A stretch of 64,000 nucleotides of DNA from Chrysomallon squamiferum (taxonomy: Eukaryota; Animalia; Mollusca). Positions 32,149 through 64,000 of this stretch are shown here, piece by piece. Where the stretch lies: NCBI GenBank assembly GCA_012295275.1, contig CM022670.1, positions 18,786,001 to 18,850,000 on the forward strand, written 5' to 3'. A program made the translations under genes and the position numbers. Below the pieces are notes generated by a model. It did no database searches. It worked only from the letters and a program-made list of their open reading frames with translations, and was not told the origin of the DNA. Positions within the stretch are counted from its first letter, which is position 1, and every line of letters begins with the position of its first letter.

Positions 32149-35100
32149 ATGGATTTAATTAACATTATTTTACTGTTTGGAATTTTTACAGTAATTGTTG
32201 CTATACAACCAAGTAAGTATATTTCATTTTGTTTTTATTCATTAATGTTTATCAAAGTGATTTTTATTTTGTAAAATTTTAACTGTAAGCAGCGTTGTTG
32301 TTTTTTTACTCCCATCTTTGTGTCTGTCTTTCTTTCTCCTTATATAATCTATCGTTTTATTCCTCTTTTTTTCTTTTTTTTTTTAGTATAGTTTTATTTT
32401 ATTTCATTTCATTTAATATTTTATTTATTTTTTATTTTTTTATTTTATTGGTTATAAAATTACTTTAATATTTCTGTTATATATATTATTTAAAATATAT
32501 ATATATATACAAAAAGAAAAGTCCAAATTCAAATAAAATCATCATTAGATGATAGAATAAAGTTAAACCAAGAAGATAAAATTTAGTGACACACACACAC
32601 ATTTAACCTTTGTACATCATAATAAAGTTTACAGGGATTTTTTTGGAATGACATTTTATTTAGCTCTGGATAAATTGAACCAAAAATATGAATATGTTTT
32701 AAATACTTTCAGTTTTATTTATTTTTAATTTTATTAATTTTATGATATATATAATATATAATTATTATAATTTTTTGGTTGTTTATATGTATTTTTGAAT
32801 TGAACAGAAATTGATCCTGATGATGATAAGCAATTTAAGAGAGTTGGTAAAAATACATATCTTTGGTGTACAGTGGAAGAGGACTTAACAGATAGGAGGC
32901 TTACATTTTTGTGGGAAAATGAGGTCATAAAAAATTCCTTCAGAAAGAATGTAACCAAAGTTAATGGTACAACTATACAGCTGGAAATAAGGAATGCCAC
33001 TAAAAATGACAATGGCATTTATAAGTGCTGCCTTCTGAGAAAACAAAGAGAAAATGACTGCACAAATGAGGCAGAACTTATCTTTGGCGGTAATATTAAT
33101 AGTTATTAAAAAATATTTATAAAAAACCCCAAAACATTATACATTCAAAAATAGTGTCTGCATATGCATGTGTTATGTCTATATATGTATGTTTGTGTTT
33201 GTTTGTGCATGCATATGGATGTATAAGTGTGTGGGTTTGTGTGAGACAGTGAGCGCATATTTCTCTATGAAAATATGCTTTTGTTTGTGTGTGTTTTTAT
33301 GTCATTGTTTGTGTAAGTGTATGTTGTATGTTTGTGTTTGTGTCATGTTTTACATGATGAATAATGTTTTAATTTGTTATTTTAATAGAACACAATAATT
33401 TTATTTAGGGTGAAATTTAATTAACATTCCAGCTAAACATTTTGTAGATATTCAGTATCAAACTTTTCAGTGCCTCGTGTTGCAAATGAGTTTTTTTTCA
33501 TTATAGAGCCACCTGCCGTTCCAGTTCTAAGTCCTGCAAACTGTACAAATTTCAACATGGAATACATGACCTGTCTCATTGACAAGGTGAAAACTGTACA
33601 AGATTTGGGCAATATCCCTACAAGCTGGAATGTATCATTTAGGTATTAGTAAGTAATATGTTGAATTTTATATACAAATTAAATGTTTTATTTAAGCAAA
33701 ATATGGAATATAACATTTTCATATTACGTAAATAATGTTGTATATTTAATTAATATTTGGTTCATATTAATTGCTTTATTTTGTTTGAAAACTAAGAAAT
33801 TCATAAGATTTAAATAAAAATATACTGAATGTTTTGTTTGTTTATTTTTTTCTAACAAACTTACAGTAATGGTGGTCGTAAAAGGTGTGATGAAACAAAA
33901 CCAGAGAAGAAAATTTTGATTTGTAATATAACAAATTTTTTGTCAAAGACTAATCATAGATTTGAAGTTGAAGCTGCAAACGAAATAGGAAATGCCACAA
34001 AAAGGATTACAATTAACCCCTTGAATGTCAGTAAGTATTTGAAATAGTTGTATCCAATCCCCAAGCTTTTTAACTTATGTTGTTCTGAATACATTACAGT
34101 ACATTTTAGCATTTTTGTAACATTTACATTACTGGTTAAATGGTTATTTTATATGTGATTTTCTGTTAATTTCAGATGTTGTACAATAGTATTATACATA
34201 ATATAGTAAATTTTGTCTGTGGATTAGGAATGTGAAATAAATCTATAGGACTTGAACATGCTGTATTATACAATATCATTTTGAACATTAAATTATTATT
34301 TTTGAATAATTTCAGTAATTTTATTTTAGTTATTCACTGGACTGTGGTTCTTTTTAGGATTTACACAGTACAAGCTTGAATATTAAATTATTATTTTTGC
34401 ATATTTCAGTAGTTTTGATTTATTTAGCCATTCATTGGACATAGGATATTATTATTTTTGTATAATTCAGTAGTTTAATCTTAATTTAGTGACTCACTGG
34501 ATAGAGGATTTATGGAGTACAAGTTTGAATATTAAATTATTATTTTTGTATTTTTCAAAAGTTTTATTTGCTTTATTTTCAGTACAACCTAGGCCAGTTA
34601 AAAAATTTCAAGTGAATTCACAACATTCTGGCTTGAACCTGAGTTGGACTTCACCTCTTGACTGCATTGATAAACATTTATTATTCATTATTTCGTACAC
34701 ATCTAAATGGGAAAAACCCAATTCAAATGTAAGTGAATAGTGTTTGTGTTTGTGTTTTATTTATTTATTTATTTTCGATTAATATATGTTATATTTTTTA
34801 ACTTATTATTATTTTTTTTAATTATATATTCATATATACATACATACAGACAGACAGACAAACGTGTGGGGCATTGTGTTGTTTTTTGTGGGGTTTTCTG
34901 GGGGAAAGATAATTTAATAAATAAACAAGTTATGTTCAGTGAAGATGCCAATACTAATTTTTTGTTTCTTGTTATGATAAATGAATTTTGGCTTATTGCA
35001 ATACTATTTAATGAATATTATTTTTTAACTTAAAACAAATTAATGTCAGTATTGTGAAAATGTTTTATTACTCATTTATAAATAGTTAATGGCAGGTAAC

Positions 35101-37185
35101 TCTGGGTTGTTTTCATGTTGAAACAGCACTAAAAGTCACAGGATTCAAGCTCTTATTCATTTTCATATTGCATTACAGACTGATATTTAAATGTAGTTTA
35201 CCTTTTATCATAAGCATCTTTATTATGTCAACACCTATTTTATCAAAATCAGTTTATTCTTAATGGTTCATTTCCATTCCAGCCATCACTGTACTATTAA
35301 ATGTATCAAAGCTATAGTATATTTATGTGTTGGTTGTTAAAGATTAGCATTTAAAATCACACTTTTGTGTGAATGTTCACTTCTTTTGTTTATATTTATG
35401 TTATTTAAAAATTAAAAAAAGGACCTGATTTTTTTTTTTTTTTTTATATTTATTGTCAAGTTTCATTTTAATATTTCCATTTAATCTTATCACATCCAGG
35501 TGACTGTAAATTGCACTAATGAAACTTTTTTGTCATCAATACTGCCAAGAAAGAGCTTGATTTCTGGTGTGCTGTACAAAGTGTGCATTAAGTCGAAACC
35601 ACTTGATGGGACAGGCTATTTTAGTCTATCTGTCTGCAAGTCTGTAACTACTTCTGTTGGAGGTAAGATGTTAAAGGAATCTTTTTTGAGAAATTTCCAG
35701 GAATGTTTATTCTCCTTAATATTATTGTTCTTGTCCAAAAACAAAATCATTTAAAATAATTGTTTTAATTTTACTTCTTTTTTAATAATATTTTTTTTAT
35801 TAATATTGATCATATATATATTTTTTTATTTACTTTATTTTTCTTTCTTTCGTAAACTGCAGTAAAGAAATTGGTATTTAAAAAAAAATATATAAATCTG
35901 GTGACAGATGAATGTGAATAAAAATGAAAAATAAAAAAATGTCTTTTTAAATTAAATTCTAATTGCTTTAGAAAGAGGGTGATTATAAAAACCTGTATTA
36001 TATATAAATAAAATATTATTTGTACATAAAATATTTACTTAAACATTTTAATCAGAAATAATCATATTTTGAAGTTCCTAAAAGTGGACCCATTGTACAT
36101 CCGTGGTTCTACAGCTTAGATTGCCGAGATTATCCTGCCTTAGCACTTTATTGGAAGGTAAATATATTTTGTTTACTCTTACAAAAAATGAATAGTAAAA
36201 ATTATTGGAGAAATACTGATATTTGGAAAAATATGTTTGAAATTTAAAATTTACAATAATCCTAATGTAAATAATCAAGTGATCTTAAAAAACAATATTC
36301 AAAATGTGGTATTATTGTTTTTCCTAAAAATGAGTTTTGATTTTTACTTCATTTTACTTCATTATCATATAAAGTTATTAATGAGTTAATTATGCGAGTT
36401 CTGTTTTAGAGCCTATATAGATACTATTCATGTATGGACATTCTAATACAGTTTTCTGCCTTTCCATAAATAATTGTATAATATTTTGTTTTTGCTGTGA
36501 ATATTATTGAAAAGTAAAAACAAATTATCAAGTACATTTTACAGTATGCCTATGCTTGGATATTTACATACAAATCCAATAAGGCAGACAGTTTTCTGTG
36601 GTTGAAAACTAGAATTGCTAAAACATGAACAATAAAAATTCCTTACTTTATTTATTTATTTATTTACTTACTACTACTTCTTCTTCTTCTTCTTCTTCTT
36701 CTTATTATTATTATTATTATTTTTATTTTTTTTTTTTTTTTTTTAACTTCTAGGAAGTGCCCTTACCTCAAAGGGGAAGCAAAAATTTGAAAAATTTCAA
36801 CATTTTTGCTGGATCTCAAGAGCAGTATGTAAATGGAACAGACATGTCTGTTATTATCAACATCAGTTACCCTGAGTTTTGTTCACGTGAATACAGAACA
36901 GCTTCCATTCAAGCAGAAACATCTGCTGGAGCTTCTATTAATTCTTCTATTAAAATATTTTCTCCAAACAGAGGTACGTAATAATACTTTATTAATTTAT
37001 TTATATATTAATCTTTAAGAAAACTTAGCATGTACTTTGGTTTAACTTCATTACTTATAATTAGTTTCAGAATATAATTATTATTTGAAACCTTTTTTTC
37101 TTTTTAATGGAAATCTGGGCATGATTCGATTTAATATATTTTCTAAATTTGGTGTTTAACTTATAAAATTACTTAGTATTGTTTG

Positions 37186-37224
<39 letters not shown>

Positions 37225-38764
37225 TTATATTATTATTATTAATTTTTTAGTTCCTGCAAAACCATACAGTGTTCAGAAAATTATGAAAAATTCAAAACTT
37301 AAAGTAACTTGGAAAACAGAAAAAAACACCCATCCACCTGATGTTATACGAGTTCACTGGTGTTATGGATATTTCTGGAAGAAAACAGATTTAGTCCATT
37401 GTCAGGTTAACAAAAAAAGTTTTCTTTAAAAAATTATGTAATTAAAAACTAAAATTATTTTAAATAAAAATCATATATAACTACATTTTCAGTATGTTAA
37501 ATATTTAATAAAAAATGTATTATTATTTTAATTTTAATTAAATATATCATTTAAGAAATACTTTAAAAATGCCAAGGAAATAAAACTTTGTATCATCTGT
37601 AATATTTTATTTTTTATTTATTTCAGAATGAAATTGGTGAAGTTAATGTTTCAGACACAGATGAAATCATGATTGACATACCTTTCTCTGGCAATCCTAT
37701 CAAATGTGCAAATTGTGATTGGAGAATTGCAGTTTCCATGGAGACAAGTGAAATCTCTAGTGGTCTGATATGGGAAAGGAATCCACTTGAAGGAATTACC
37801 AGTGAAAAAAGTAGAGTGGAAAAATTAAATATTTTGTTTATTATTTTGTGGAAATTAAAATATATTATTTTGATAAACATGCTTTTTTTTCACTTAAATA
37901 TATTTTTTTATTTTTCTCTAAAACAAACTCCTCTGTCATGGCCTCCATGTTTAACATCAGTTGCTAAAGTCTGCTTTTGGTAGTAGCAGCAAAACATTTT
38001 GTTTGTTTTATCATTTTAAGAACATTAGTGTACAAATGTTTGTGTATCAATAATCCATTCAGATTTTAGAATTTGCTGGACATTACTCATTTTCTGTCTT
38101 TTGGTTTTGTACAACTGCTGGTAATGATCACTGTGTTTTAAATTGCATAGCTAAATTTTTTTTGCTATGGCTTATTTTGCACAACTAATTTTTATGCAGT
38201 GCATTTGATGAAAGCTGTTTTATTAATTTCATTTTAGACTGCATTGAAAGTTCAAAGAAGCAGGATCATTTTAATTCAAACGATAGTCAAATTACATGTA
38301 AATTGCCATCATTGTTTAAAAAGTGATTGTACTTGCAAAATTTTGTGCCATTGTTGACAATGCTATTACTATATAAACTGTTCTTTGTTCTAGAATGTAT
38401 ACCTTAATCTGAAGCAGACAGCATATATATATACTAAATAACTGGAGATTAAAAATATGTTGCAGATATGATTAAATAATGCTTGTTCTTTTCACATATT
38501 GTACTTGCATAAGTACTGTTACACTTACATATACATAATTATAGATACCCATGTGTGTGTGTCTCTGTGTGTGTTTTTGTGTATGTATATAATTTGTTAA
38601 TTTTTTTTTTATACAGTAATATTTAAAGATAGTGATGGAAAAACGGTTATTATCATCTGTGTCTCTATTGCCCTTTTCATCCTAGTTCCAGTGTTTATTT
38701 GCTTTTTATGGTAATTACAATTATTGTTTAACTATTATTATTCAGCTGAACACTTATATATATA

Positions 38765-38798
<34 letters not shown>

Positions 38799-41732
38799 GC
38801 ACACATTCACATACATACATATATAAACAAACACACATATATATATATGAGATAAAAAGAGAAAAAAAATGTGACATTTTCACATTTAAATGCACTCTTT
38901 TCATTGTAATCTACATAAACATCAGTGTTGTACCAGTAACTGCAGATTTTTTAAATTTAATTATTTAATTTCCACTTTTTTCTTTTCTTTTTATTTTTAA
39001 TAGCAAGAAAAAACATCCAAGACAAAAATTTGAATATCCATCTAATGCATATAAAGTAAGTTTAAATTATTGGTTTATTTCTTTATTCTTGTTTGCTTGT
39101 CAAAAAAAACCCATACCATCATATAGTTGTCTTCTTAACTTTTACCTAACTGGACACTCTGAAGCTCACACACTGTTATAAATAGCCAACAGTAACCCTT
39201 CTCAAAAACAAATTTTCACAAATTTTGTGGCAAGGAAGATATGACAGTTAAATTCAAAATACTTCAGGTGAGAAGGCTGCAGAAATGAATGTTCACTAGT
39301 TTCATCAGTGTTGACTAATTATTAACAAAGAAAGAAAAATATGTTTTGACTGTGATATTTAGTGATTTGATTTTTTCTTTAGTTCTGTGTAGTTTTGTAT
39401 TCATGTACCTGTTACCCAGTGTTGTTCTTCTGTAATATTTGTCATTTCATGTTTATTTTTTAATTATTTTAATTATTTAATTTACTTTAATTTACTTTTT
39501 TATTTTATTTTATTATTTTTCAATTATTTTTTGTTTTTTGTTGAGCACATGAGTTTCCTGAAAGTACTTTTTGTGTTTTGACTTGTCTAACCTAATCACT
39601 GAAAATTATATTACTACATTAAGAGATTTTGGGGGGGGGTTGTTTGTTTGTTTGTTCATTTCAAATGTTTATCTTTTTTTAAGGGAGAGAGGAGGGATTG
39701 GGTTTTTACCCCAGTAATATATATATTATTTTTATTTGTAATTTTTAAAAGTCCAAACAATACAATCTACTGGAAAACAAAACTATAAGCTAGAAGCAGC
39801 AAACTTTGATTATCAGTTTAGACAGTAAATTCTTTGTGAATAAATTTGTAATCTTGAGATTTAGTTTTTAATGTACTGAATAAAATTAACATTATCCTTT
39901 ATGTTTAAATCAGAATTTTAGTTTCTTCTTTCCATTTATAATTTACTCATATTTGGACTCTACTGTAGATTAATAATGTTGTCTGAGATCAAAATTATTT
40001 ATTATTTCCAGATGGGGCAATCTCTGATTTAATGTGACAACTTTATTAATAGTTAAATAAGTGTGTGTGTGTGTGTGTGTGTGTGTGTTAGCAATGTTAC
40101 AATTATGCACTTTCCATTGTTCTCAAGTAGCAGTGGACTGGGTGAGGACCATCAAAAATGGCGTGTTGACAGGTTATAAATAGATTTCTAAGAATAAATG
40201 TTTTTTGATGATGTTCTGCACACATTTCTATGCATCCTCGTCTGTTTGAGGGAATGAGGACATGTCAACCAAATGTGCCTTCTGATCAATTGAGAACATT
40301 TGTTTACCTTATTTATAAACTATGTGAATGCTTTTGTTTATAATTTAATTCTACACATAGCAATTTTTCAGTTTTTGTTGATGTTTCCTTTGGCTTCAAC
40401 TAAAAACAAAAATGTTTACACTTTTCTTCTATGCATTTTTGAGGAGGTATAGGCATTTTTGTCAGGTTTTTTATTCAATATGTGGCCAATTAACATAATA
40501 AAAAAAATACGTAAAAATTGTACATTTTTCAGCATCTTCCATTTTCAGGATATTTCAAAAAAATTGGTCTCATTTTGTTTCTTTTTTAAGGCTCTATCCA
40601 ATGAAACAGGACATTTCTTGAGCTGAATTTTAGCTGAATTTTTTTGTAAATTACCTGCATATATTATATTATTTTTTAGTTAATTAACAATACAGAAGAT
40701 TCTAAACAATCAACTGAGGTAAATGTTTTTCTGTTGCTTTCATTTTCATTTTAAAATTACAGAATAAATGGAATGTGATTTATATAAATTACATAATCCC
40801 AAACACATCAGTATAAATATAATTACTTACACTAACTCATTCAGATTCTATATTTATTATTATTTTCTTTTTATCTCTTTTTTTTTTGTGACAACTTGAT
40901 TAATAGTTAAATAATTATGTGTGTGTGTGTATATGAAACATTAGCAATGTCACAATTATGCACTTTATGCTATCTAGACTTTACCAATGATCACTGATAA
41001 TGTCATTCTCAAGCAGCGGACAGGGTGAGGATCATCAAAAATGGCTTGCTGACAGTTTATAAATAGATTTCAAAGAATAAATCTCTTTTGATACTGTTCT
41101 GCACACATTTCTATGCATCCTTGCTTTCAAAATTTAATTTCTTTTAACTGCAATCATCTCCAATATTCTTATGAATAAAAGTTAAAAATTTGCCTTACAA
41201 AGTCAAATAAGTAGGCTTAGCAGATGAGATTTTTAAAAAAAACAAATACACTTTCAACAGATCATTTATTTAACTTTATTTCTGCCAAATTTCATGGAAA
41301 TCTGTAATTGCAATCATGGTTTGTTCAATTATGATAATGGATGTCACTATTTGAGGGAATGAAGACACATAATCCAAATGCTGTTGATCAAGAGCATTTG
41401 TTTACCTTATTAATGTGCACTAATTCTGTCCTCAGCAATTTTTCAGTTTTTGTTGATATTTCCTTTGGCAACTGATTAAATAATTGTTTACACTTCTCTT
41501 TTATACATTTTTAAGGAGATACGGGCATTTTTGTCAGGGTTTTTTACTCAGAGTGTGGCTAATTGACATAATAAAACAATAGGTAAAAACTGATACATTT
41601 TTCAGTGTCCTTCCATTAACAAGATATTTCAGAAAATGTGGTCTCATTTTGTTTTGTTTCTTAAGGCTCTAACCAATGAAACAGGACATTTCCTGATATA
41701 TTTGAACTGAAGTATGTATAATATAATGAAAA

Positions 41733-41763
<31 letters not shown>

Positions 41764-42935
41764 TATATTATTTTATTTTTTAGTTATTTAAGAATACAGA
41801 AGATTCAAAAAAATCAACTGAGGTAAATGTTTTTCTTTTGCTTTCATTTTCATTTTAAAATTACAAAACAATTGGAATGTGATTCATATAAATTATATAA
41901 TCCCAAACATATCAATATATGTGAGCATTAGTTTCGGAACATTAATTGCATTCACTTAATATTTATAATAAGTATATAAAAATATGTATATTTGAACTGA
42001 AGTATGTATAATATAATGAAAATAATATTATATATATATATATATATATATTATATTATTTTATTTTTTAGTTATTTAAGAATACAGAAGATTCAGAAAA
42101 ATCAACTGAGGTAAATGTTTTTCTGTTGCTTTCATTTTCATTTTATAATTACAGAATAAATAATCCCAAACACATCAGTATAAATATAATTACTTAAACT
42201 AACTCATTCAGATTCTATATTTATTATTATTTTCTTTTTTTCTCTTTTTTTTTTGTTTTTTTTTCATATTTACGTGAGCATTAGTTTTGGAACATTAATT
42301 ACATACACTTAATATTTATAATAAGCATATAAAAATATGTATATCTAAATTGTTTTCCTAGATATGTGTGTGACTGTGGTTGTGTGCCACTGAATGAAAA
42401 GTTGATGAAAAGACATTTATCAAAAAAATGTATATATAATAACACTTCTATTAATATTTAAAATATGTTGGGGGGGTTGGTATGTGTTGATTAAATAGTT
42501 ATTCCTTTGATTTTTTTGTTTTTATTGATTTTTTTGTTGTTTTTTGTTGAACAGCGGTTATGTGATGAACATTCTAGGACAGATGACAAAGACAACGAGA
42601 AACCAGCAATGAAAGTCAGTGGACATAAAAGCAGCCCCAGTGACAATAACATGAAAAGCACTTTAAATTTATCATGTAATTCAGTTTTTAAATCAGAAAT
42701 GACAGCAGCTTCAGAAAGGACAGCAGCTTCAGAAACAACGTTAAATAGTGGAATACATTCCTCTGATAAGAGATTACGAGGACCTGGAGAGTTTGATATC
42801 CAAGACAGTAGCATGTCTGGAACATGCTGTGATCTGAACAGTGGTGTATCTCATCACTATGAGATGACTGTTGTAAATAAACTTGACACTAGCTGTGAAG
42901 CTTGTCCAAGTTCTCAGGAAACTTTGTTAGTTTAA
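32149..42935 (+). CDS. gp130/IL6ST/domeless-like class I cytokine receptor family type-I membrane protein, copy 1 (~748 aa: SP-Ig-4xFnIII-TM-tail)
   Basis: Exons 32149-32212 (signal peptide MDLINIILLFGIFTVIVA), 32808-33089 (Ig: LWCTV..W..LEIRNATKNDNGIYKC), 33507-33648 (EPPAVP..NCTNFNMEYMTC), 33867-34030 (C..C..FEVEAANEIG..INPLNV), 34583-34728 (QPRPV..LNLSWTSP), 35500-35662 (LISGVLYKVCIKSKP..GTGYFSLS), 36075-36157 (VPKSGP..LYWK), 36754-36973, 37251-37405 (LKVTW..VHWC), 37627-37810 (WRIAVS..SSGLIW; weak donor), 38617-38710 (TM VIIICVSIALFILVPVFICFL), 39004-39055 (CKKKHPR), 40680-40718, 41784-41822, 42072-42110, 42555-42935. All phases are consistent (2247 nt). Confidence 0.85.
34280..34582. repeat. 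Degenerate intronic minisatellite (attatttttg.atatttcagtagttt..att..tttag.cattca.tgga..taggattt) ending at the exon-5 acceptor
   Basis: Several imperfect units; more units at 58470-58827 in copy 2. Confidence 0.7.
40040..42345 (+). repeat. Nested intragenic tandem duplications carrying three 39-nt microexons
   Basis: ~40040-40800 resembles ~40895-41915; ~41697-41985 resembles ~41987-42345. Each block contains ttttag|TTA.TTAA.AATACAGAAGATTC...AATCAACTGAG|gtaaat. Confidence 0.85.
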
Positions 42936-52186: not shown

Positions 52187-52228
<42 letters not shown>

Positions 52229-52257
52229 GTTCTCTTAACACAAATAAGGAAATAAGC

Positions 52258-52445
52258 AGTAAGTTATAATTCTCTGACCTAATATTAGACTAATAGTGCA
52301 TCCTAACCGGGCGCGTACTACGCGAGCGACGCAAGCGTTATTATTTTTTTTTTTTAAACAAACCATTGTTTTCAGCTGGTGCATCCTAACTGCACGCGTA
52401 CGGCACGACAGTTTTAGCGTTCGCGTGCAGTTAGGATACAGCATT
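52258..52445. mobile_element. Short GC-rich hairpin-forming insertion (MITE fragment) specific to copy 2
   Basis: gcatcctaactgcacgcg...cgcgtgcagttaggatac inverted arms; the gtgcatcctaac motif recurs at ~52296 and inverted at ~51880; absent near 29428 in copy 1. Confidence 0.5.
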
Positions 52446-53557
52446 ACATGAACACCCATAGTTAAATTTCTCAGAAGTTAGTTACTTATATATTTTATTA
52501 TTTGTATTAACCCAATATTGTTCTTCGAACAAGGCTGAAATCTGTATTTAACGGAGCATAAAGCACATCTTGAATGACGTCGTATATATTTTTTTCTGTT
52601 TCTTTAACTTAGCAAATTGGTCATAACTAAAAAAGCCACGGACTGCAATTTAGGTTATACCTACTTGTAGAATCCGCATGTAGCTTTTTTTTTTTTTTTT
52701 TCTTCTTATTATGATATTTAATATTGCTGTACTATTTAGGTACAGTTTTTGAAAATGTCAAAAACATATTTATTATAAACCTAAATGGCTTATTTTACTA
52801 CAGTTTAACATCTCGTAATTAACCTGTATGCATCATTAAAGTAAGTAAATATGTTAACCATTCATTTCTACAAATATTCCTAACAGTATGTATTAATTAA
52901 ATATCTACTGTTGGTTAATAGCAATCCGATTTCTGAAATCACCTAACAATTAACAATAATTAGCGAGAGACAAAAGGAATTTTTGTCAGCTACGCTCTGC
53001 TGACTCAGGGAAATATATTTTGCCATATCTTTGTTTAAGTCGGAAGCAGGGAACAAATGGTTATCCTGTTTCTGTAAGCACTGTTTGATTTGTTGATCAG
53101 TTTGATTTAACCTGTATATGCTCCATAGAGAGTTAACCTGTTAGGGAAAATTAAAAGAATTAAGAATTATAGTATTTCATTTATCGCCAACTCCCACGTC
53201 CTCAACCACTAAATAATAAGTATACATGTGTAAAATATATAATTATCTTTTAATATAAATATTGTGTTTTGTTTTGGTGTTCATAATGCATACTTGATAT
53301 CTGTAGCATATACAAATATATGTATCTATTATAATCACCCGTTACAATTTGTTAATTACACAGTCAGCGGGTTCACGAAAGGATGCAATCCCTAGACAAG
53401 GAACGAGCCATATTTTAATAGGGTCGTTAGCACTTGAAAGCTAACTTCTCCATGACAATTAAGAACTATTTTATTTGGATGTATAGCGACGACGAAGTAC
53501 TACCATCGCGGCATGATGATAAATAAAACAGTTGATTCCATTTAGTTCTTGTTGTTG

Positions 53558-53616
<59 letters not shown>

Positions 53617-53702
53617 GAACGCATTGTTCATGTGCACTGTTTAATAATAAACCCAAGCTTTCTTTGTACTTGTTCAAACTGTGGTTTGAGAAATGACATA
53701 CT

Positions 53703-53713
53703 ACGCATGCGCA
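53703..53713. promoter_or_regulatory. NRF1/ewg-like motif upstream of receptor copy 2
   Basis: tacgcatgcgcag, conserved with 29824 although the flanks diverge. Confidence 0.5.
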
Positions 53714-53933
53714 GAAAAAAAAAAAAAAACACACTTTAACTGGCACAGCAACCGAAACCAAAACAACTGCTGAATACCATTTATCTTTATAATGTTTTTA
53801 GATTTGTAAAATTTAATACATATTGCTAAAAATGTTCAGATTACTTTCAGTTATCATTTTCTGTTTTAGTTTCTGTTTTGGTTTTCCGAAATGGCCAGAA
53901 CATCAGAACAACGCAGTAACTCTGAGTAAGTTG

Positions 53934-53984
<51 letters not shown>

Positions 53985-56222
53985 AAGTAATTGATAACCC
54001 GATGAAGGTATGACTATATCAGTATCACTCATTCTTTTACGTAATCGTGTACAGAGTACATGTTTATTTATATTACTAATGATTCTAGTAATAGCTTTAA
54101 AAAAGAAACAACCTATTACAGCTAATGCAGGGTACTTTTCACAGAATTAATACAATTATTGAATTAATAAATTGTTAATAGTTATCTTTTTGTTGATTAA
54201 CAGGTGTGTCACGTCATATAGCATGACAAATATGTTATTATTATTTGTTATTTTTTCATATTGGTTTAAAATTCATTTCTTCTTTGTTACATATATTTTA
54301 TTATTTTATTTAAATAAATATGAAAAATCTTATCCTTTTTTAAAAATATATTTGTCATTTGGTTTGAAAATACGATATAATGCAAGTGAATATATAGGCC
54401 TAATAGATAAAAAAAAAAAAAAAAAAAAAACCCCTTGAATGTGTATTTATGTTTGTTTATGTGCATTAATTAATGTTAATTAATCAAAATATTATATATA
54501 AAATAATGTCTAGCATCTTATTCAAATATTGTTTACATTATTTTCAGATTATTGGTAACCAGCTAGTAATTAAAAAAAATAAAAAATAAATTAAAAATTA
54601 AAAATAATGTTATCAGTATATTATCATTTGATATTTCTGAAACAAGACATACTACTTAAAACATGAAAGGAGTTATTTCCTAAATTCATGGAAACCTGGA
54701 AGTGTCAAGAAACTTGATATCTGCATATGTACCAAACAAAGATGAGTTTATTGGTGAGTATATTATTAAATAATCAGTTAACTGCTTTTCTGATAGGAGA
54801 AAACAAAATCTGATATATTATTTTTAATTTAAAACAAAATTTCACAGAGAGAGAGAGACATATTTTGAAAATCATTATTTGCAGTAACCTTGTTTACCAA
54901 AATCAGTTTTCTTTTGGTGTGCAGAAGTGAGTTGTTATTATTGATGTTGTTTGTGTTGTATTATTTTTCATTAGTTAAATACTTCTAAACTATAAAATAG
55001 TGTAATATGAAGTTTTTACTTTTCAAATTTGTTATCTTTTAAGTTTTCTATGAAGTTTGTATTAGTCAGTTCAATGTTATGTATCAAAATATCTGGTTAA
55101 TTAAAAAAAAAAAAAAAAATGTATGTATCAAAACAGAAATTAGTTTTATATAGACTATTCATAGAGTAAGTATGTATCCTATGGTGAGACATTTTAAATT
55201 CCTTATATTGCATAATATATATATATATATATCTAATCAGTTCTAGAATATTTTTACTTTTTACATTTCTGTAAACACAACATATTTATAAATCCTGAGA
55301 AATGCTATCCTCCATGTATCCATGAATTTTTTTTGTGAGTTTCATACTTAATTATTAACAAAGATTGGTACTAAGATGTAAAGAAAATACAGTTAGTCAG
55401 AAGAGTAAATGAGTATAATTATGTCCTATTTGAATCTGGTATATCTGTACAACAAAAATAAAAACAACCTTACTATTATTCGTGTCTGTTGTTTGAATGG
55501 GCATTATTTCCAAATATTCTAGTATTGTACTGTTATTTTCTTCTGTTCCTGTTTACAAGTGTTGAAAAAAACCACACCAAAAAAACCACCTATATATATA
55601 TATGTATATATTTATATATGGAAAACACACCATCCAAGGAAACTGAAAGAGGGCATTTTTTTTTAAAGTTATGATGTATTGTTGTTATTTTCAATGGAAC
55701 AAGTATGCATAAGTTTCTGTGCCTATTTAGATGTTCCTTTTTTCTTTCTTTTTTTCTTTTAATAAAAGTTATAACTGTCATGTCAATTTAATATTGTTCT
55801 CACTGATTTCTGAAGTAAAATATGTCCCATTCATTTATAATGTTCCTGTTTCCTTTTTCTTCAGGAAATAAATTCTCAAAGAAATTTTTGTATTGATAAC
55901 TAGTTCTTAGTAATATCTATTTATAAATGATAAATAAAATAAATGTATACATCAGTTTGATGACATCTATCTGGTCTGTATAATTGACAAGTATGGTTTT
56001 TAACTAGTTAAACTGGTGTTAAAAATTAGATATTAATTCATTATTATTAAATATAATTTATCTATTAATATTATTTTATTTGCAATTGTTTATTTTTTAT
56101 TTCCTTATAAAGCAGTTGGATAAAAATTAATTAAACATTTTTTTTTATTTTTTATTTTATTTTATTGTTATTCTTTCATTCATTAATTATTTTTCAGTCT
56201 TGTTTCTTCCCACAGGAAATCT

Positions 56223-56633
56223 ATGGATTTAATTAACATTATTTTACTGTTTGGAATTTTTACAGTAATTGTTGCTAGACGACCAAGTAAGTATATTTCA
56301 TTTTGTTTTTATTCATTTTCTTTTATAAAACTGATTTTCCTTTTGTAAAATTTTAGTATAAGCAGTGTTGTTGTTGTTGTTGTTTTATTCCTTTTTTTCT
56401 TACTTTTTTTTAGTATATAATTTTATTTTATTTCATTTCATCTGCTGCTTTTTGTTTTAATTTAATTATTTTGTTAGTTATAAAATTACATTAATATGTT
56501 TAAAACAAGAATTTTAAAAATGTTAAATAAAATTAAAAATTTATGTTAAATAATGATTATAATTTTCTTTTTTGTTGTTGAATAGTTTTTTGTGTTAATT
56601 TTTGTTTAATAATTTCAGTTACATATATTATTT

Positions 56634-56673
<40 letters not shown>

Positions 56674-56892
56674 CATAAAAAAGAAAAGACCAAACTCAAA
56701 TAAAATTATCATTAGATGATAGAATAAACCAAGAAGATAAAATTTAGTGACACACACACACTCATTGTACATTATAATAAAGTTTACAGAGATTTTTTTT
56801 GAATGACATCTTATTTAGCTCTATGAATATGTTTTAAATACTGTCAGTTTTATTTATTTTTAAATTTATTAATTTTATGATTTATATATATA

Positions 56893-56926
<34 letters not shown>

Positions 56927-59900
56927 ATTATTTGTTTGTTTATTCATTGTTGTTTTTATGAATTGAACAGAAATTCTTCCTGATGATGATAAGCAATTTA
57001 AGAGAGTTGGTAAAAATGCACATCTTTGGTGTACAGTGGAAGGGCACTTCAAAAATCCAAAAAAAGTATTTAGGAGACTTACATTTTTGTGGGAAAATGA
57101 GATTATAAAAAATTCCTTCAGAAAGAATGTAACCAAAGTTAATGGTACGACTATACAGCTGGAAATAAGGAATGCCACTAAAAATGACAATGGCATTTAT
57201 ATGTGCTGCCTTCTGAAAAAACAAAGTGATAATAACTGCAAAAAAGTGTCAACTGCAGAACTTGTCTTTGGTGGTAATATTAATAGTTATTAAAAAATAT
57301 TTATAAAAAAACCCAAAACATTATACATTCAAAAATAGTGTCTGAATATGTATGTTTGTGTTTGTTTCTGCATGCATATGTATGTATAAGTGTATGTTTG
57401 TGTGAGACAGTGAGTGCATATTTCTCCACGTATATATACTTTTATTTCTGTGTGTTTTTAATGTCACGGTGTGTAAGTGTATGTTGTATGTTTGTGTTTG
57501 TGTGTGTCATGTTTTACATGATAATAAATGTTTTAATTTGTTATTTTAATAGAACACAATTTTATTTATTATGAAATTTAATTAACATTCCAGCTAAACA
57601 TTTTGTAGATGTTCAGTGTCAAACTTTTCAGTGCCTTGTGTTGCAAATGTTTTTTTGTTCATTGTAGAGCCACCTGCAGTTCCAGTACTAAGTCCTGCAA
57701 ACTGTACGAATTTCAACATGGAAAGCATGACCTGTCTCATTGACAAGGTGAAAACTGAAGAAGATTTGGGCAATGTCCCTACAAGCTGGGATGTATCGTT
57801 TAGATATTAGTAAGTAATATGTTGAATTTTATATACAAATTAAATAATTTTTAAGCAAAGTTGATTTTGGTACAGTTTTAAAATGTAGAATGTAATATTT
57901 TAATATTAAGTAAATAATGTTGTATATTTAATAATATTTGATCCATATTTATTGCTTTATTTTGTTTGAAAACTTAGTATTTGATGAGATTTAAATAAAA
58001 ATATACTGAATGTTTTGTTTGTTTATTTTTTTCTAACAAACTTATAGTAATGGTAGTCGTATAAGGTGTGATGAAACAAAACCAGAGAAGAAAATTTTGA
58101 TTTGTAATATAACAAGTTTTTGGTCAAAGACTAATCATAAATTTGAAGTTGAAGCTGCAAACCTAATAGGAAATGCCACAAAAAGGATTACAATTAACCC
58201 CTTGAATGTCAGTAAGTATTTGAAAAAGTTGTATCCAATCCCCAACTTTTTTTCATTTATGTTGTTCTGAATACATTACAGTACATTTTAGCATTTTTGT
58301 AACATTTACATTACAGGTTAAATGGATATTTGGTATATGATTTTCAGTTAATTTCAGATGTTATACAATAATATTATACACCATATAATAAATTTTGTCT
58401 GTGTTTGCCATTAGGGATGTGAAATAAATCTATAGGACTTGAGCATGCTATATTATACAATACCGTTTCGAACATTAAATTACTATTTTTTAATATTTCA
58501 GTAATTGTATTTTAGTCATTCACTGGACTTTGGCAATTAGGATTTACATAGTACAAATCTGAATATTAAATTATTATTTTTGCATATTTCAGTAGTTTTA
58601 ATTTATTTAGTCATTCATTGCACATAGGATTTATTATTATTTGGGTATATTTCAGTAGTTTTGATTTATTTAGTTATTCATTGGATATAGGATTTATTAT
58701 TTTTGTATATTTCAGTAGTTTAATCTTAATTTAGTAATTCATTGGATATAGGATTTATGGAGTACAAGTTTGAATATTAAATTATTATTTTTGTATTTTT
58801 CAAAAGTTTTATTTGCTTTATTTTCAGTACAACCTGGGGCAGTTAAACAATTTCAAGTCGATTCCAGTCATTCTGGCTTGAACCTGAGTTGGACTTCACC
58901 TCTTGACTGCACTGATAAACATTTATTATTTATTATTTCATACACATCTAAATGGGAAAAATCAAGTTCAAATGTAAGTGAATAGTGTTTGTGCTTTATT
59001 TATTTTAATTTTATTTATTTTATAATTTATATACAGTGGAACCTCGGGTTATGAAGCAGGAAATAATTTAAATGTAAACAATCCATTCCAGCCCCCAGAA
59101 TAATTTTATTTTCATTGTTTTCAGAGCTTTTTACATGAATAAATACAGAATTTTGTTAAATTAACCATATAGATAGAAAACCATTAAATTAAATACCGAG
59201 ATTACTGTGCATTTATTTTAATGCAACTTACAATGTGGTGGAGAGTCAATGTCATGGGGGAGGGGACGGTGTTGGTGAAGAGGAAGAAGTTATCGTTTGG
59301 AAAGCAAGTCTCCTTCCATAGTAACACTGGGCTCTGCTACTTCAGCGGTATGTTTTTGCTTTGCTATCTGTTAAGGAAAAAATCAAGAGAAATTTGCTTC
59401 TCTCTTTGTCGGAGAATGTTATCATTCATTAAGGTCACTGCCCTGTTTGCCACAAGTTTGTTTGGGTGATGGTGTCCAATAAGATCTTCAATATCAGCTC
59501 ACTTATTGTAAATATCTTTTATTCTAGTATTAGAAACCTCAGTCCTTTCCTCCTTATCGTCAGACAATTGCTCATCCTTTAATGCCTTGAGTTGTTCACT
59601 CTGTCTACCTTGAATATCTCTAAGCTTTTCTCTACTATACATCCTGGCCAAAGTTTTCTCCAGGCAGAGTACAAAGTGCAGGTTGAAGTGATATTTCCAG
59701 AAGTCTCTGAGGGTCAATTCAGTATCATTTGTGATCTGAAAACACCTCAGAAAAAGAGCCTTTGTGTACAGTTTCTTGAGTTTTGAGATCACTTGTTGAA
59801 GCAAAGGAGTGGAAATGAGAGGCAGGAATTTGACCTTAATAAAGTTATACTTGATGACCAGGTCCTCCTCCAAATCTGGGGGCATGTTCAGGAGTATTAT

Positions 59901-62900
59901 TTATATCAAGAGACATCTAAGAGGCATATTGTTTTTTCCTCCTCTTCACACTTCGGGCAGACACTTTAGTCAGCCATTCCATGAAGATAAGTCTCGTCAC
60001 CCATACCTTCTCATTACCTCTCCACATCACAGGGAGTTTGTTTTCCTGGGTGATAAATGTCCCCTTTGGCATTTTCTTCCAGAAGAAACCTATCTCATCA
60101 CAGTTAAAGATAAAGTTATCAAATTTCACCTTAAATGTTGGAACTTGCAGCTTCCCCATATCTAATAACTGTGAATACCCATTCTTTTTTTAAACTTCTC
60201 AAACCATCATCTACTGGCTTTAAACTCATCACTTTTAGCAAAAGCCTAGCCTTTTCACATATTCTTGCCTCACTAACACTATCTCCAGTAAGTTGCTTTT
60301 CATTGATCCAAATTAAGATAAGCTTTTCAACTTCATCTAAAAGTTTGGACCTTTGCCTTGTTCATTTATCACACTTTTGGCCACATTGGCTGATTTGATT
60401 ACCTTGTTTTACTTGAGGATGGTCCAAATCGTCAATTTCGCCATTCTGTAATCCCTAGTAATGTCAGACACACGATAGCCACTCTCATATTTCTTTCTTA
60501 ACCTCTTCTGTGATATGTTTATACTTTCTACCAGCATTATCGCTTTCATTTTTTATATTCTTGGGCACCATATTGGATAGAATATAATAAAAGAATATAG
60601 ACATAAAAGCAGCAACAATTTAAAAATTGCAAGTGCACAATCTCAATGCAAAAGCTATTGAGCTACAACTGCATATTGAAGACTAAAGGCCCTAATTTAT
60701 GATACATATTTGCTATAGGGAATGCCTATAATCCTTACTTTTACCTCAGTTTTGACGTAAGCATCTGTTGGCATCTTAACGAGATGTTGATGTCAAAACC
60801 AACATCAAAAGAAAGCTTGTTGTGGCGCATCACTGTAGTTCGTAACTCAGAACATCAGTCATAAACTGCTCAAGAACACAGTTCATAATCCAATTTATTA
60901 GTGCTTCAAGGTGTTCATAACCCAAGGTTCCATTGTATTTAAAAAATGTTATATACATACATAAATACATGTGTGTGTGTGGAGTTTGTACTGGTTTTGT
61001 TTTGGGGGGGCGATAATTTAATAAATAAACAGATTAGATATTCAGTAAAGATGCCAATACTAATTTTTTGTTTATTGACTCATTGTTATGATAAATGAAT
61101 TATTTGCATGAATGACGATAAGAAACAGATATGTTATCAAGTTATTCTATTTTTTCCCATCTTAAGTATATCCTTGTACTGACATTAGGCAAATCTGAAA
61201 TTTTGGCTTATTGCAATAATATTTAATGAATATTATTTCTCAGTATTGTGAAAATGTTCTATTACTCATTTATAAATGGTTAATAACAGGTAACTGTCTC
61301 GGTTGTTTTTGTGTTGAAACAGCACTAAAAGTCACAGGATTTTTGCTCCTATTCATTTTCATATTGCATTACAGACTGATATTTAAATGTAGTTTACCTT
61401 TTATCATAAGCATCTTTATTATGTCAACACCTATTTTATCAAAATCAGTTTATTCTTAATGGTTCATTTCCATTCCAGCCATCACTCTACTATTAAATGT
61501 GTCAAAGCTATAGTATATTTATCTGTTGGTTGTTAAAGATTAGCATTTAAAACGCCACTTTTGTGTGAATGTTCACTTCTTTTGTTTATATTTGTTATTT
61601 AAAAATTTTTTAAAAAGGACCTGATTTTTTTTTTTTTTTTTTTTTTAAATATTTATTGTCAAGTTTCATTTTAATATTTCTATTTAATCTTATCACATCC
61701 AGGTGACTGTAAATTGCACTAATGAAACTTTTTTGTCATCAATACTGCCAAGAGAGAGCTTGATTTCTGGTGTGCTGTACAAAGTGTGCATTAAGTCGAA
61801 ACCATTTGATGGGACAGGCTATTTTAGTCTATCTGTCTGCAAGTCTGTAACTACTTCTGTTGGAGGTAAGATGTTAAAGGAAACATTTTTGAGAAATTTC
61901 CAGGAATGCTTATTCTCCTTATTATTATTGTTCTTGTCCAAAAACAAAATCATTTAAAATAATTTTTTTAATTTTACTTCTTTTTTGATATTTTTGTTAT
62001 TAATATTGATTCATATATATTTTTTTATTTACTTTATTTTTCTTTCTTTCGTAAACTGCAGTAAAGAAATTGGTATTTAAAAAAAATATATAAATCTGGT
62101 GACAGATGAATGTGAATAAAAATGAAAAATAAAAAAAGATCTTTTTAAATTAAATATTAATTGCTTTAGAAAGAGGGTGATTATAAAAACCTGTATTATA
62201 TATAAATATAATATTATTAGTACATAAAATATTTACTTAAACATTTCAATCAGAAATAAATTTTAAAAAGTTGTATCGTATTTTGAAGTTCCTAAAAGTG
62301 GACCCATTGTACATCCGTGGTTCTACAGCTTAGATTGCCGACATTATCCTGTCTTAGCACTTTATTGGAAGGTAAATATATTTTGTTTACTCTTACAAAA
62401 AATGAATAGTAAAAATTATTGGAGAAATACTGATATTTGGAAAAATATGTTTGAAATTTAAAATTTACAATAATCCTAATGTAAATAATCAAGTGATCTT
62501 AAAAAACAATATTCAAAATGTGGTTTTATTGTTTTTCCTAAAGATGAGTTTTCATTTGAACTTCATTTTACTTCATTATCATATAAACTTATTAATGAGT
62601 TAATTCTGCAAGTTCTGTTTTAGAGCTTATATAGATACTATTCATGTATGGATATTCTAATGCACAATTTTCTGCCTTTCCATAAATAATTGTATAATAT
62701 TTTGTTTTTGCTGTGAATATTATTGAAAAGTAAAAACAAATTATCAGGGACATTTACATGCAAATCCAATAATGCAAACAGTTTTCTGTGGTTGAATGTT
62801 TGGCAACACTAGAATTGCTAAAACATGAATAACAAAAATTCTTTAATTTCGTAATTCCTTAATTTATTTATTTATTTATTTACTTACTTACTTACTTTAT

Positions 62901-63708
62901 CTTCTTCTTCTTATAATTATTATTATTATTATTTATTATTACTTTTTTTTAATTATTTATTTCTAGGAAATACCATTACGTCAAAGAGGAAGCAAAAACT
63001 TGAAAAATTACAATATTTTCATTGGATCTCAGGAGCAATATGTAAATGGAACAGACGTTTCTGTTATTATCAGTTACACTGAGTTATGTTCAGGTGGATA
63101 CAGAACAGCTTTCATTCAAGCAGAAACATCTGCTGGAGCTTCTGATATTACTTCTATTAAAATATTTTCTCCAAACAAAGGTATGTGATAATACTTTATT
63201 AATTTCTATATATTAATCTTTAAGAAAACTTAGCATGTACTTTGGTTTAACTTCATTACTTATTTGTATTTTCAGAATATTTTTGTTCTTTGTATCTGTT
63301 GTATATATATATATTTTTTTTTTTTTTTTTTTTAAATGGAAATCTGGGTATGATTCAGTTTAATATGATTTCTAAATTTGGTATAATTCTTCTTATTATT
63401 ATTTTTTTTTTTATTATTATTTTTTTTTTAGTTCCTGCAAAACCATACAGTGTTCAGAAAATTATGAAAAATTCAAAACTTAAAGTAACTTGGAAGACAG
63501 AAAAAAACACCCATCCACCTGATGTTATACGAGTTCACTGGTGTTATGGATATTACTGGAAGAAAACAGATTTAGTCCATTGTCAGGTTAAAAAAAAGTT
63601 TTCTTTAAAAAATGATGTAATTAAAAACTAAAATTATTTTAAATAAAAATCATATATAACTATATTTTCAGTATGGAAACACAGTTATGTTAAATATTTA
63701 ATAAAAAA

Positions 63709-63760
<52 letters not shown>

Positions 63761-64000
63761 TATTATTTTTATTATTATTTTTAATTAACTTAAAATTAAA
63801 CATATCATTTAAAAAATACTTCAAAAATATCAAGGAAATAAAATTATATCATCTTTAGAATATTGTGTACATAACTGCATTTAATATTTAATTTTTTATT
63901 TATTTCAGAACGAAATTGCTGAAATTGTTGTTTCAAACACAGATGAATTCATGATTCACAGACGTTTCTCTGGCAATCCTATCAAATGTGCAAATTGTGA
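56223..64000 (+). CDS. gp130/domeless-like receptor, copy 2 (3' partial; first ten coding exons, frame intact)
   Basis: Exons 56223-56286, 56971-57273, 57668-57809, 58048-58211, 58828-58973, 61703-61865, 62289-62371, 62967-63180, 63432-63586, 63909->64000. Phases match copy 1; length changes are in-frame only (+21 nt in the Ig exon, -6 nt in exon 8); no stops seen. Confidence 0.85.
59034..60935 (-). mobile_element. Tigger/pogo-family DNA transposon (defective) in intron 5 of receptor copy 2
   Basis: TIRs ta|CAGTGGAACCTCGGGTTATGAA and TTCATAACCCAAGGTTCCATTG|ta (2 mismatches in 22 bp), TA target duplication; absent from copy-1 intron 34729-35499. Confidence 0.92.
59499..60571 (-). pseudogene. 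Fragmented Tigger (TIGD1-like) DDE_1 transposase
   Basis: FNCDEIGFFWKKMPKGTFITQE, LPVMWRGNEKVWVTRLIFMEW and VKFLPLISTPLLQ-QVISKLKKLYTKALF..TLRDFWKYHFN in different frames, with stops and deletions; likely start ATGGTGCCCAAG at 60571. Confidence 0.88.

What the first reader, a model, noticed from the sequence alone, without database searches (positions are those of the whole stretch)
32149..64000. Tandem, apparently diversifying pair of non-canonical gp130/domeless-like receptors
Seen: two intact paralogs with SP-Ig-FnIII architecture; copy 2 runs off the window, so the array may continue. Known: invertebrate models generally have one or very few domeless/gp130-type receptors. Seen: every other gene in the duplicated block was deleted or pseudogenised while the receptor kept its frame and its splice sites. 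Inference: a lineage-specific expanding family of cytokine-receptor-like immune or recognition receptors, the best candidate for an undescribed system here.
Basis: partly seen in the sequence, partly recalled or inferred. Interest (0 to 1): 0.85.

Follow-up and report, generated by a model that had tools for sequence, protein, structure and literature searches.

The report
Young duplicated snail gp130-like receptor pair
A snail genome carries two neighbouring, spliced and transcribed copies of a stripped-down gp130-like surface receptor gene that stayed intact while the other genes copied with it decayed, and the copies likely differ in which signal protein they bind, though nothing here shows a larger or positively selected family.

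Summary
A ~38 kb tandem duplication carries two open copies of a signal peptide–Ig–4×FnIII receptor (copy 1 about 745 aa; copy 2 open for 508 aa to the window edge; 87% identical). The co-duplicated genes are deleted or broken. RNA contigs show both copies spliced. An orthologue with the same layout exists in the vent snail Gigantopelta aegis (50.6% to each copy), and its nearest ESM Atlas clusters are gp130-family receptors (0.96–0.97). It is non-canonical: the four CHD cysteines are kept, but there is no CxW Trp, WSXWS or D6, and copy 1 has no YXXQ.

The 'expanding, diversifying family' reading is not shown. Only two variants appear in two DNA runs, and one relative was found. dN/dS is 0.84 (0.55–1.34), change is symmetric between copies, and a likely gene-conversion tract is present. 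Selection does keep frames and Cys/Trp, and the differences cluster in two Ig loops. Two Dome-type genes are already known in flies, a tick, a spider and a centipede. This scan earlier noted a tandem domeless pair in an arthropod (e1-7596349), not this locus. Verdict: a real, modest variant of a known kind.

The parts
32149..42935 (+). Receptor copy 1, 16-exon model, about 745 aa: signal peptide, Ig D1, FnIII D2-D3 (cytokine-binding module), FnIII D4-D5, TM (about residues 542-560), 185-aa Ser/Thr-rich tail
   Evidence: junctions E1-E2 to E5-E6 seen in copy-1-like RNA contigs; exons 7-16 rest on splice signals and homology to P0001
32149..32212 (+). Copy 1 exon 1, signal peptide
   Evidence: hydropathy; loose end of RNA contigs matches its 3' end
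32808..33089 (+). Copy 1 exon 2, I-set-type Ig domain D1; carries 15-nt and 6-nt in-frame deletions relative to copy 2 and G. aegis in the BC and FG loop regions
   Evidence: Pfam ig/I-set E about 1e-5; NCAM-type PDB hits; alignment
33507..34030 (+). Copy 1 exons 3-4 (33507-33648, 33867-34030), D2 with four CHD-spaced cysteines, CxW Trp replaced by Ile
34583..35662 (+). Copy 1 exons 5-6 (34583-34728, 35500-35662), D3; WSXWS position reads GYFSLS
   Evidence: weak fn3 hit E 0.09
36075..37801 (+). Copy 1 exons 7-10 (36075-36157, 36754-36973, 37251-37405, 37627-37801), D4 and D5; exon-10 donor weak (score 1.9)
   Evidence: exon 10 is 69% identical to P0001
38617..39055 (+). Copy 1 TM exon (38617-38710) and juxtamembrane exon (39004-39055) with a degenerate Box1-like stretch
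   Evidence: not RNA-checked
40033..42352 (+). Local repeats holding three 39-nt phase-0 micro-exon candidates (40680-40718, 41784-41822, 42072-42110), homologous to one stretch of the G. aegis tail
   Evidence: use in mRNA not checked
42555..42935 (+). Copy 1 last exon, Ser/Thr-rich, one Tyr, no YXXQ
56223..64000 (+). Receptor copy 2, exons 56223-56286, 56971-57273, 57668-57809, 58048-58211, 58828-58973, 61703-61865, 62289-62371, 62967-63180, 63432-63586, 63909-64000+; open for 508 aa; TM and tail lie beyond the window
   Evidence: spliced RNA contigs with 0 differences across exons 2-3-4 in runs X8 and X9
59031..60940 (-). Decayed DDE_1 (pogo/Tigger-like, label recalled) DNA transposon in copy 2 intron 5, with ~22-nt terminal inverted repeats
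   Evidence: Pfam DDE_1 E 1.1e-5; TIRs
35154..36450 (.). Likely gene-conversion tract between the copies (covers exons 6-7 and flanking introns; counterpart about 61.4-62.7 kb)
   Evidence: intron differences 30 of 920 inside versus 206 of 2307 outside; 0 of 2000 permutations as conserved
44386..64000 (.). Second unit of the tandem duplication, a reduced copy of 5957-37718+; unit junction near 44.4 kb
   Evidence: self-BLAST; sequence
50499..50830 (+). Pseudogene of Tctex1-B: large deletion, 3 frameshifts, 3 stops at ~9% divergence; internal neutral control
27241..27813 (+). Intact single-exon Tctex1-domain gene B of the first unit
   Evidence: Pfam Tctex-1 E 7.5e-28
25348..26037 (+). Intact single-exon Tctex1-domain gene A; no counterpart in the second unit
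   Evidence: Pfam Tctex-1 E 3.3e-29
18324..22479 (+). CAF1-family nuclease gene (TOE1-like, name recalled; start not modelled); no counterpart in the second unit
   Evidence: ORFs; Pfam CAF1 E 4.6e-4, below cut-off

Best explanation
A tandem duplication left two intact, transcribed copies of a fast-evolving gp130-like receptor gene, and each likely encodes a ligand-binding chain that would dock JAK but likely needs a partner chain to recruit STAT, with the copies likely diverging in ligand preference through their Ig-tip loops. Shown: duplication, open frames, splicing of exons 1-6, decay of neighbours, selection against stops, frameshifts and Cys/Trp loss, missing WSXWS/D6/YXXQ in the copy 1 model, and clustering of differences in D1 loops. 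Inferred from gp130 biology: a secreted protein ligand binds D2-D3 and D1; JAK binds the degenerate juxtamembrane Box1-like stretch; a DSGxxS-like degron (motif recalled), perfect in G. aegis and degenerate in copy 1, would control turnover. Inferred: since duplication both copies changed at near-neutral rates outside the structural core, while gene conversion kept the D3 C-half and D3/D4 hinge alike.
For: Atlas features of the orthologue: all 10 listed clusters are gp130-family tall receptors at 0.96-0.97, best structural TM 0.55. Four CHD cysteines at the spacing given in PMC1963337. The same architecture, also without D6, in G. aegis at 50.6% identity to each copy. Spliced contigs for both copies in 2 of 2 RNA runs laid. 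No stop where 7.4 are expected, 3 of 3 exon indels in frame, 0 of ~6 expected Cys/Trp losses, against a wrecked Tctex1-B duplicate. 11 of 17 aligned BC/FG-loop residues differ versus 7 of 76 elsewhere in D1. gp130 D1 binds cytokine site III (PMC7378365 passages). No tail-exon candidate creates YXXQ.
Against: No direct sequence hit to any solved cytokine receptor, and Pfam finds only the Ig domain. Both AlphaFold models were poor (pLDDT 33.5 and 53.9). WSXWS and the CxW Trp are absent, and gp130 needs each of D4-D6 to signal, so the protein may not signal at all. The tail model is unverified by RNA and copy 2's tail is unseen. The loop enrichment sits beside indels where alignment is ambiguous, the loop limits were set with the differences in view, and these loops also vary between species (13 of 22 versus 32 of 76). 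Differences fall on outgroup-conserved sites about as often as on others (32 of 65 changed sites match G. aegis), which fits plain relaxation. No ligand or partner is known.
Confidence: 0.5

Rival explanations
1. Both copies are Eye transformer/Latran-type antagonists: they pair with a canonical Dome/gp130 encoded elsewhere and form signalling-dead complexes.
For: No YXXQ in the copy 1 tail, no WSXWS, fewer FnIII modules. Et/Lat lacks YXXQ, binds Dome, JAK and STAT, and blocks signalling (PMC2914635 passages; PMC4751595 first part).
Against: Lat has no FnIII after its CBM region and sits beside dome. This protein has two extra FnIII, a 185-aa tail with three tyrosines, and its neighbour is its own twin. 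No canonical Dome could be looked for (no genome).
Confidence: 0.2
2. This is the lineage's only, highly derived Dome/gp130 orthologue; it signals itself through non-YXXQ tyrosines to a STAT5-like factor, and the duplicate is kept for dosage or tissue partition.
For: Molluscan IL6R-like receptors are reported together with JAK and STAT5-like STATs (PMC13203501 passages). One juxtamembrane Tyr-Lys is shared with G. aegis, where it reads YKSQ. No second paralogue turned up for P0001. Change is symmetric between copies.
Against: The loss of WSXWS and D6 is extreme for a sole essential receptor. The shared Tyr lies where JAK would bind. Exon 10 retrieved no molluscan homologue beyond G. aegis among 1.84 billion representatives, although that query was short.
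Confidence: 0.15
3. One reading: a lineage-specific, expanding, positively selected family of recognition receptors.
For: Amino-acid change runs at the neutral rate despite a protected core (N/S 2.98 versus 3.07 neutral), which a mix of purifying and positive selection could give. Changed residues are clumped (18 adjacent pairs versus 8.5 expected, P 0.0002). Two extra variants in copy-1-like contigs are both non-synonymous.
Against: Only two variants at 85% likeness or more in runs X1 and X2; no third copy upstream in the window; one protein in G. aegis; the dN/dS interval spans 1.
Confidence: 0.07
4. Copy 2 is truncated or disabled beyond 64000, giving a soluble decoy or a young decaying copy.
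For: Its TM and tail are outside the window; the second unit has lost much other sequence and gained a transposon.
Against: 1524 nt are open with every splice site kept. Even on one lineage 3.7 stops and about 9 frameshifts are expected. It is spliced in RNA and shows no rate excess (16/16). This argues against decay, not against a soluble form.
Confidence: 0.06
5. The two units are allelic haplotypes joined by mis-assembly.
For: The unit junction could not be checked with reads, and contig depth cannot give copy number.
Against: The units differ in gene content (two genes deleted, two broken in unit 2) and by ~7% in introns. Both variants are in 4 of 4 runs laid, from two studies.
Confidence: 0.02

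Closest known systems
Gigantopelta aegis LOC121376557 (XP_041360402.1, 'uncharacterized protein', P0001)
   Same: SP-Ig-D2-D5-TM layout, no D6, no WSXWS, same cysteine pattern, homologous tail blocks; 50.6% identity to each copy
   Different: One protein found; a ~52-aa insertion in D3 of its model; tail has YKSQ and a perfect DSGxxS, both lost in copy 1; synteny not testable
Vertebrate gp130/IL6ST, CSF3R, LIFR, IL12RB2 (group 2 class I cytokine receptors)
   Same: Ig + CHD + FnIII + TM topology; four CHD cysteines; nearest Atlas clusters
   Different: D1 scores as I-set/NCAM-like; CxW Trp, WSXWS and D6 missing; Box1 degenerate; no distal YXXQ
Drosophila Domeless and Eye transformer/Latran
   Same: A tandem pair of class I-type receptor genes; absence of YXXQ as in Lat
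   Different: Lat is an old, short partner with no FnIII modules beside a full signalling Dome; here both copies are 87%-identical twins with an Ig domain and two extra FnIII
Duplicated Dome in Ixodes, Strigamia and Parasteatoda; tick Dome1
   Same: More than one Dome-type gene in an invertebrate (PMC4833078 Table 1); tick Dome1 is reported to have gained a new ligand, IFN-gamma (PMC11754740 passage)
   Different: Arthropod genes; no data here on their age, adjacency or motif loss
Molluscan IL6R-like receptors (PMC13203501)
   Same: Signal peptide, Ig, 3-4 FN3, TM and tail described for IL6R/gp130
   Different: Those are described with an IL6R domain, which Pfam does not detect here; relationship untested

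Membership tests
[quoted passage not shown] | Signal peptide and a single TM segment | tested here: met
   Hydropathy peaks at the N-terminus and at residue 542 of copy 1 (crude Kyte-Doolittle); copy 2 TM is beyond the window
[quoted passage not shown] | N-terminal Ig domain | tested here: met
   Pfam ig and I-set above cut-off; nearest PDB sequences are NCAM/contactin/IgLON, not gp130 D1
[quoted passage not shown] | Four CHD cysteines, C-x9-10-C ... C-x10-15-C (PMC1963337) | tested here: met
   C128, C138, C170, C182 in copy 1; same in copy 2 and G. aegis
[quoted passage not shown] | Trp of the CxW motif | tested here: not met
   Ile in both copies and in G. aegis; strict pattern fails
[quoted passage not shown] | WSXWS at the end of D3 | tested here: not met
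   GYFSLS in both copies; no WS.WS in any of the three proteins
[quoted passage not shown] | Three membrane-proximal FnIII domains (D4-D6) | tested here: not met
   D5 runs into stalk and TM in copy 1 and in G. aegis; no D6-sized exon between exon 10 and the TM exon; not RNA-checked
[quoted passage not shown] | Box1 JAK-docking motif | tested here: inconclusive
   No PxxP/PxP pattern in the tail; one hydrophobic-Pro stretch ~13 residues after the TM in both species
[quoted passage not shown] | Cytoplasmic YXXQ STAT site | tested here: not met
   None in the copy 1 tail under any candidate exon; one juxtamembrane YKSQ in G. aegis; copy 2 unseen
[quoted passage not shown] | Overall likeness of the ectodomain to gp130-family receptors | tested here: met
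   Tested on the orthologue only: 10 of 10 listed Atlas clusters, 0.96-0.97, 202-212 of 256 features shared; TM up to 0.55
[quoted passage not shown] | Phylogenetic placement with Dome/IL6ST; JAK-STAT signalling | not testable with these tools
   No Dome or gp130 sequences were retrieved
Eye transformer/Latran-type short receptor | No FnIII modules after the CBM region | tested here: not met
   Two further FnIII domains present; Lat has none
Eye transformer/Latran-type short receptor | Tail without YXXQ | tested here: met
   (copy 1 model only)
Eye transformer/Latran-type short receptor | Lies in tandem with a full-length signalling Dome | tested here: inconclusive
   The only neighbour in the window is its twin; DNA beyond 64000 could not be read
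Eye transformer/Latran-type short receptor | Dominant-negative effect on JAK-STAT | not testable with these tools
   Needs cell assays
Expanded, positively selected immune receptor family | More than two copies | tested here: inconclusive
   Two variants at 85% likeness or more; near-identical or distant copies cannot be excluded without the genome
Expanded, positively selected immune receptor family | dN/dS above 1 | tested here: not met
   0.84, bootstrap 0.55-1.34

The most novel reading that the evidence does not exclude
Peltospirid-type vent snails evolved a JAK-linked receptor class without WSXWS, D6 or a STAT3 site, built on an I-set Ig tip. In this lineage a young duplicate pair is splitting ligand recognition (host cytokine versus a symbiont- or microbe-linked protein) by reshaping the D1 BC/FG loops, while gene conversion keeps the D3/D4 contact region matched so that the twins can heterodimerise.
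Probability: 0.12. Interest if true: 0.75.

Novelty: new variant of a known kind. Interest (0 to 1): 0.36.

Why it matters
Molluscan cytokine receptors and their ligands are poorly known, and annotation misses this one (the orthologue is 'uncharacterized'; Pfam sees only the Ig domain). A conserved receptor lacking WSXWS, D6 and YXXQ would test which parts of the gp130 design are dispensable. A young pair differing mainly in D1 loops gives ready domain-swap baits for ligand fishing, with a co-duplicated pseudogene as a neutral clock. As it stands it is a two-copy duplication of a known receptor kind, so a specialist would find it useful rather than surprising.

Tried and rejected
No genome was held, so genome-wide copy counting was impossible. 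Word-based protein searches with exon 2 (0 of 46 candidates) and exon 6 (0 of 16) found nothing. PDB sequence searches with exons 4 and 5 and with P0001 gave no cytokine receptor. Two metagenome scans meant to extend the DNA past 64000 found nothing. Alignment A1 of P0001 with 18 exon fragments was misaligned and not used. AlphaFold of P0001 alone (pLDDT 33.5) and of D1 with three rows (53.9) were too poor; Foldseek gave no hit at E 0.001 or better (only weak generic FnIII rows for the former). D1 loop limits therefore rest on strand landmarks and a low-confidence model. Of the 4 hits, P0002-P0004 are repeat or zinc-finger proteins with no real alignment and were dropped. Relic D6 exons near 37.9-38.1 kb were considered and rejected because G. 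aegis also lacks D6 and no strong D6-sized exon scored. A read-through of exon 10 that mimics a TM segment was judged less likely than the spliced TM exon on composition and homology, but is not excluded without RNA. Shrimp 'Dome1/Dome2' turned out to be protein fragments, not paralogues. Contig depth was not used as copy number or expression level.

Full report
Setting. The window is 22-33% GC with many microsatellites. No genome is held. The only true relative retrieved is a protein of the peltospirid vent snail Gigantopelta aegis, so the source is likely a related gastropod. It is not G. aegis itself, given 50.6% identity.

Duplication. Self-BLAST shows collinear direct matches from 5957-37718 to 44386-64000, with offsets falling from about 38 kb to 24 kb through deletions in the second unit. 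The first unit has a minus-strand ORF near 8.8-9.2 kb, a CAF1-family gene (TOE1-like; name recalled), two Tctex1-domain genes and receptor copy 1. In the second unit the CAF1 gene and Tctex1-A are absent. Tctex1-B has a ~230-nt deletion, three frameshifting deletions and three stops at about 9% divergence, and the minus-strand piece is 5'-truncated with a 1-nt insertion. No receptor exon occurs upstream of copy 1.

Gene models. Copy 1 has 12 exons open for 580 aa through the TM and juxtamembrane exons. Three 39-nt exons inside local repeats and a last exon give 745 aa. The exon-10 donor is weak (1.9 against 5.3-12.0 for the 20 training donors) but gives a stalk of the same length as in G. aegis. 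Copy 2 has 10 exons in the same phases, open for 508 aa to the edge, with a DDE_1 transposon in intron 5.

Expression and paralogy. Nine of 11 listed runs hold the copy 1 stretch or part of it, from three studies; two are RNA. Four runs were laid on copy 2 exons 2-5. Both RNA runs (one study) have a 289-nt contig with no difference from copy 2 that joins exons 2-3-4 at GT..AG. Both also have copy-1-like spliced contigs, with loose ends matching exon 1 and exon 6. One contig in X9, identical to copy 2 over 94 nt, runs 21 letters into exon 6 across the transposon intron; that is below the tool's 31-letter bar and only a hint. Both DNA runs, from two studies, hold both variants. Of the 40 variant letters shown (50 more were not shown), 35 equal copy 1's letter. 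Of the other five, three lie at indels or repeats, and two are in copy-1-like contigs and change residues (Trp to Cys, Leu to Phe), probably alleles. No third paralogue was visible, but near-identical or under-85% copies cannot be excluded. Depth is not copy number. Nothing past the start of exon 6 is RNA-checked.

Identity. Pfam finds only an I-set/ig domain in exon 2 and in the orthologue; the PDB sequence hits are NCAM/contactin/IgLON Ig domains. Exon 10 searched against 1.84 billion representatives gave 4 hits; one is real (P0001, 69%, E 1.5e-14) and three are repeats. P0001 aligns over the whole model and also passes from D5 straight to the TM. A word search with P0001 returned only itself among 7990 scored candidates, which is weak evidence for a single copy and for fast evolution. 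The ESM Atlas puts P0001 next to gp130, LIFR, LEPR, CSF3R, IL23R, IL12RB2 and IL31RA clusters at 0.96-0.97, with best TM 0.55. Against the CHD definition in PMC1963337 (passages), the four cysteines are correctly spaced, but the CxW Trp and WSXWS are missing in all three proteins. Box1 is degenerate, and copy 1 has no tail YXXQ under any of the 6 candidate phase-0 exons or the last exon. It works like a gp130-type receptor by layout, but it fails defining motifs, so I do not file it as a canonical member.

Selection. Exons differ by 6.4% and introns by 7.3% away from gaps. NG86 gives pN 0.067, pS 0.079 and dN/dS 0.84 (bootstrap 0.55-1.34). A neutral simulation at intron rates predicts N/S 3.07 (observed 2.98) and 7.4 stops (observed 0); 44 of 56 intron indels would shift frame, but 0 of 3 exon indels do. 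If only one lineage were neutral, 3.7 stops (P 0.025 for none) and about 9 frameshifts are expected; the indel figure is inflated by microsatellite slippage in introns. About 6 of 27 Cys/Trp codons should have changed and none did. Polarised changes are 16 per copy, and 32 of 65 changed sites match the outgroup, so there is little extra protection of conserved sites. Both copies are therefore functional, but their surfaces change at about the neutral rate; relaxation cannot be told from mixed positive and purifying selection. A 1.1-1.3 kb low-divergence tract over exons 6-7 (introns 30 of 920 versus 206 of 2307; 0 of 2000 permutations) indicates gene conversion. Changed residues clump (P 0.0002; densest 12-residue window P 0.046). 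In D1, 11 of 17 BC/FG-loop residues differ versus 7 of 76 elsewhere, and both D1 indels are deletions in copy 1. Caveats: these sites lie next to indels, loop limits were set with the data in view, and the D1 model is low-confidence.

Mechanism. In gp130, D2-D3 and D1 bind cytokine, D4-D6 are each needed for signalling, JAK binds Box1 and STAT3 binds distal tyrosines (PMC7378365 passages). I infer a ligand-binding, JAK-docking chain that lacks the usual STAT3 site and needs a partner, with the twins drifting or adapting apart at the D1 tip (0.5). Rivals: Et/Lat-like antagonist (0.2), sole derived Dome orthologue (0.15), expanding recognition family (0.07), truncated copy 2 (0.06), haplotype artefact (0.02). 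The DSGxxS degron label and the D3 contact role are recalled, not from a call.

Literature. Drosophila dome and lat are a tandem pair, and Lat lacks FnIII and YXXQ (PMC2914635 passages; PMC4751595 part 1 of 5). Two Dome genes are tabulated for Strigamia, Ixodes and Parasteatoda (PMC4833078 passages). Tick Dome1 is reported to bind IFN-gamma (PMC11754740 passage citing Rana 2023). Molluscan IL6R-like receptors are reported (PMC13203501 part 1 of 6 and passages). An Aplysia survey lists one JAK and one STAT and has no occurrence of 'gp130' or 'domeless' (PMC9334734 passages). PMC9195186 was read in passages. Eight searches (listings only, open-licence library) showed no paper on this gene or on a gastropod duplicate. 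That is weak evidence of absence, and no supplements were read, where gene-family tables might list it.

Verdict. The finding is real and well supported as a retained, expressed two-copy duplication of an unusual gp130-like receptor. It is not shown to be an expanding or positively selected family. New variant of a known kind; interest 0.36.

Noticed in passing
window 40033-42352: Nested local repeats have tripled a 39-nt phase-0 tail exon; G. aegis has one homologous stretch, so alternative inclusion could vary tail length.
   Followed up: partly
window 25348-27813: Two adjacent single-exon Tctex1-domain genes, 43% identical: an older tandem pair.
   Followed up: partly
window 8785-9187 (minus strand): An ORF of ~134 aa with no convincing Pfam hit; its duplicate near 47.1-47.5 kb is truncated and frameshifted. 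Identity unknown.
   Followed up: partly
window 59031-60940: Decayed DDE_1 DNA transposon with ~22-nt terminal inverted repeats in copy 2 intron 5.
   Followed up: partly
window 57092 and 57736 (copy 2 coordinates): Copy-1-like contigs carry two letters found in neither assembled copy; both change residues (Trp to Cys, Leu to Phe).
   Followed up: partly
window 37802-37983: Read-through of exon 10 gives an open hydrophobic stretch that tblastn aligns to the G. aegis TM; probably AT-rich intron chance, but an intron-retention isoform is not excluded.
   Followed up: partly
window 38238-38297 and 39684-39713: Two further in-frame exon candidates with fair splice scores and no counterpart in G. 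aegis.
   Followed up: no
P0001 residues ~276-335: The G. aegis model has a ~52-aa Cys/His-rich insertion inside D3 that both window copies lack; it may be an annotation artefact or an extra exon.
   Followed up: no
window 4841-4939 and 44093-44191: An inverted 99-nt match just before each unit start, likely a repeat element near the duplication breakpoint.
   Followed up: no
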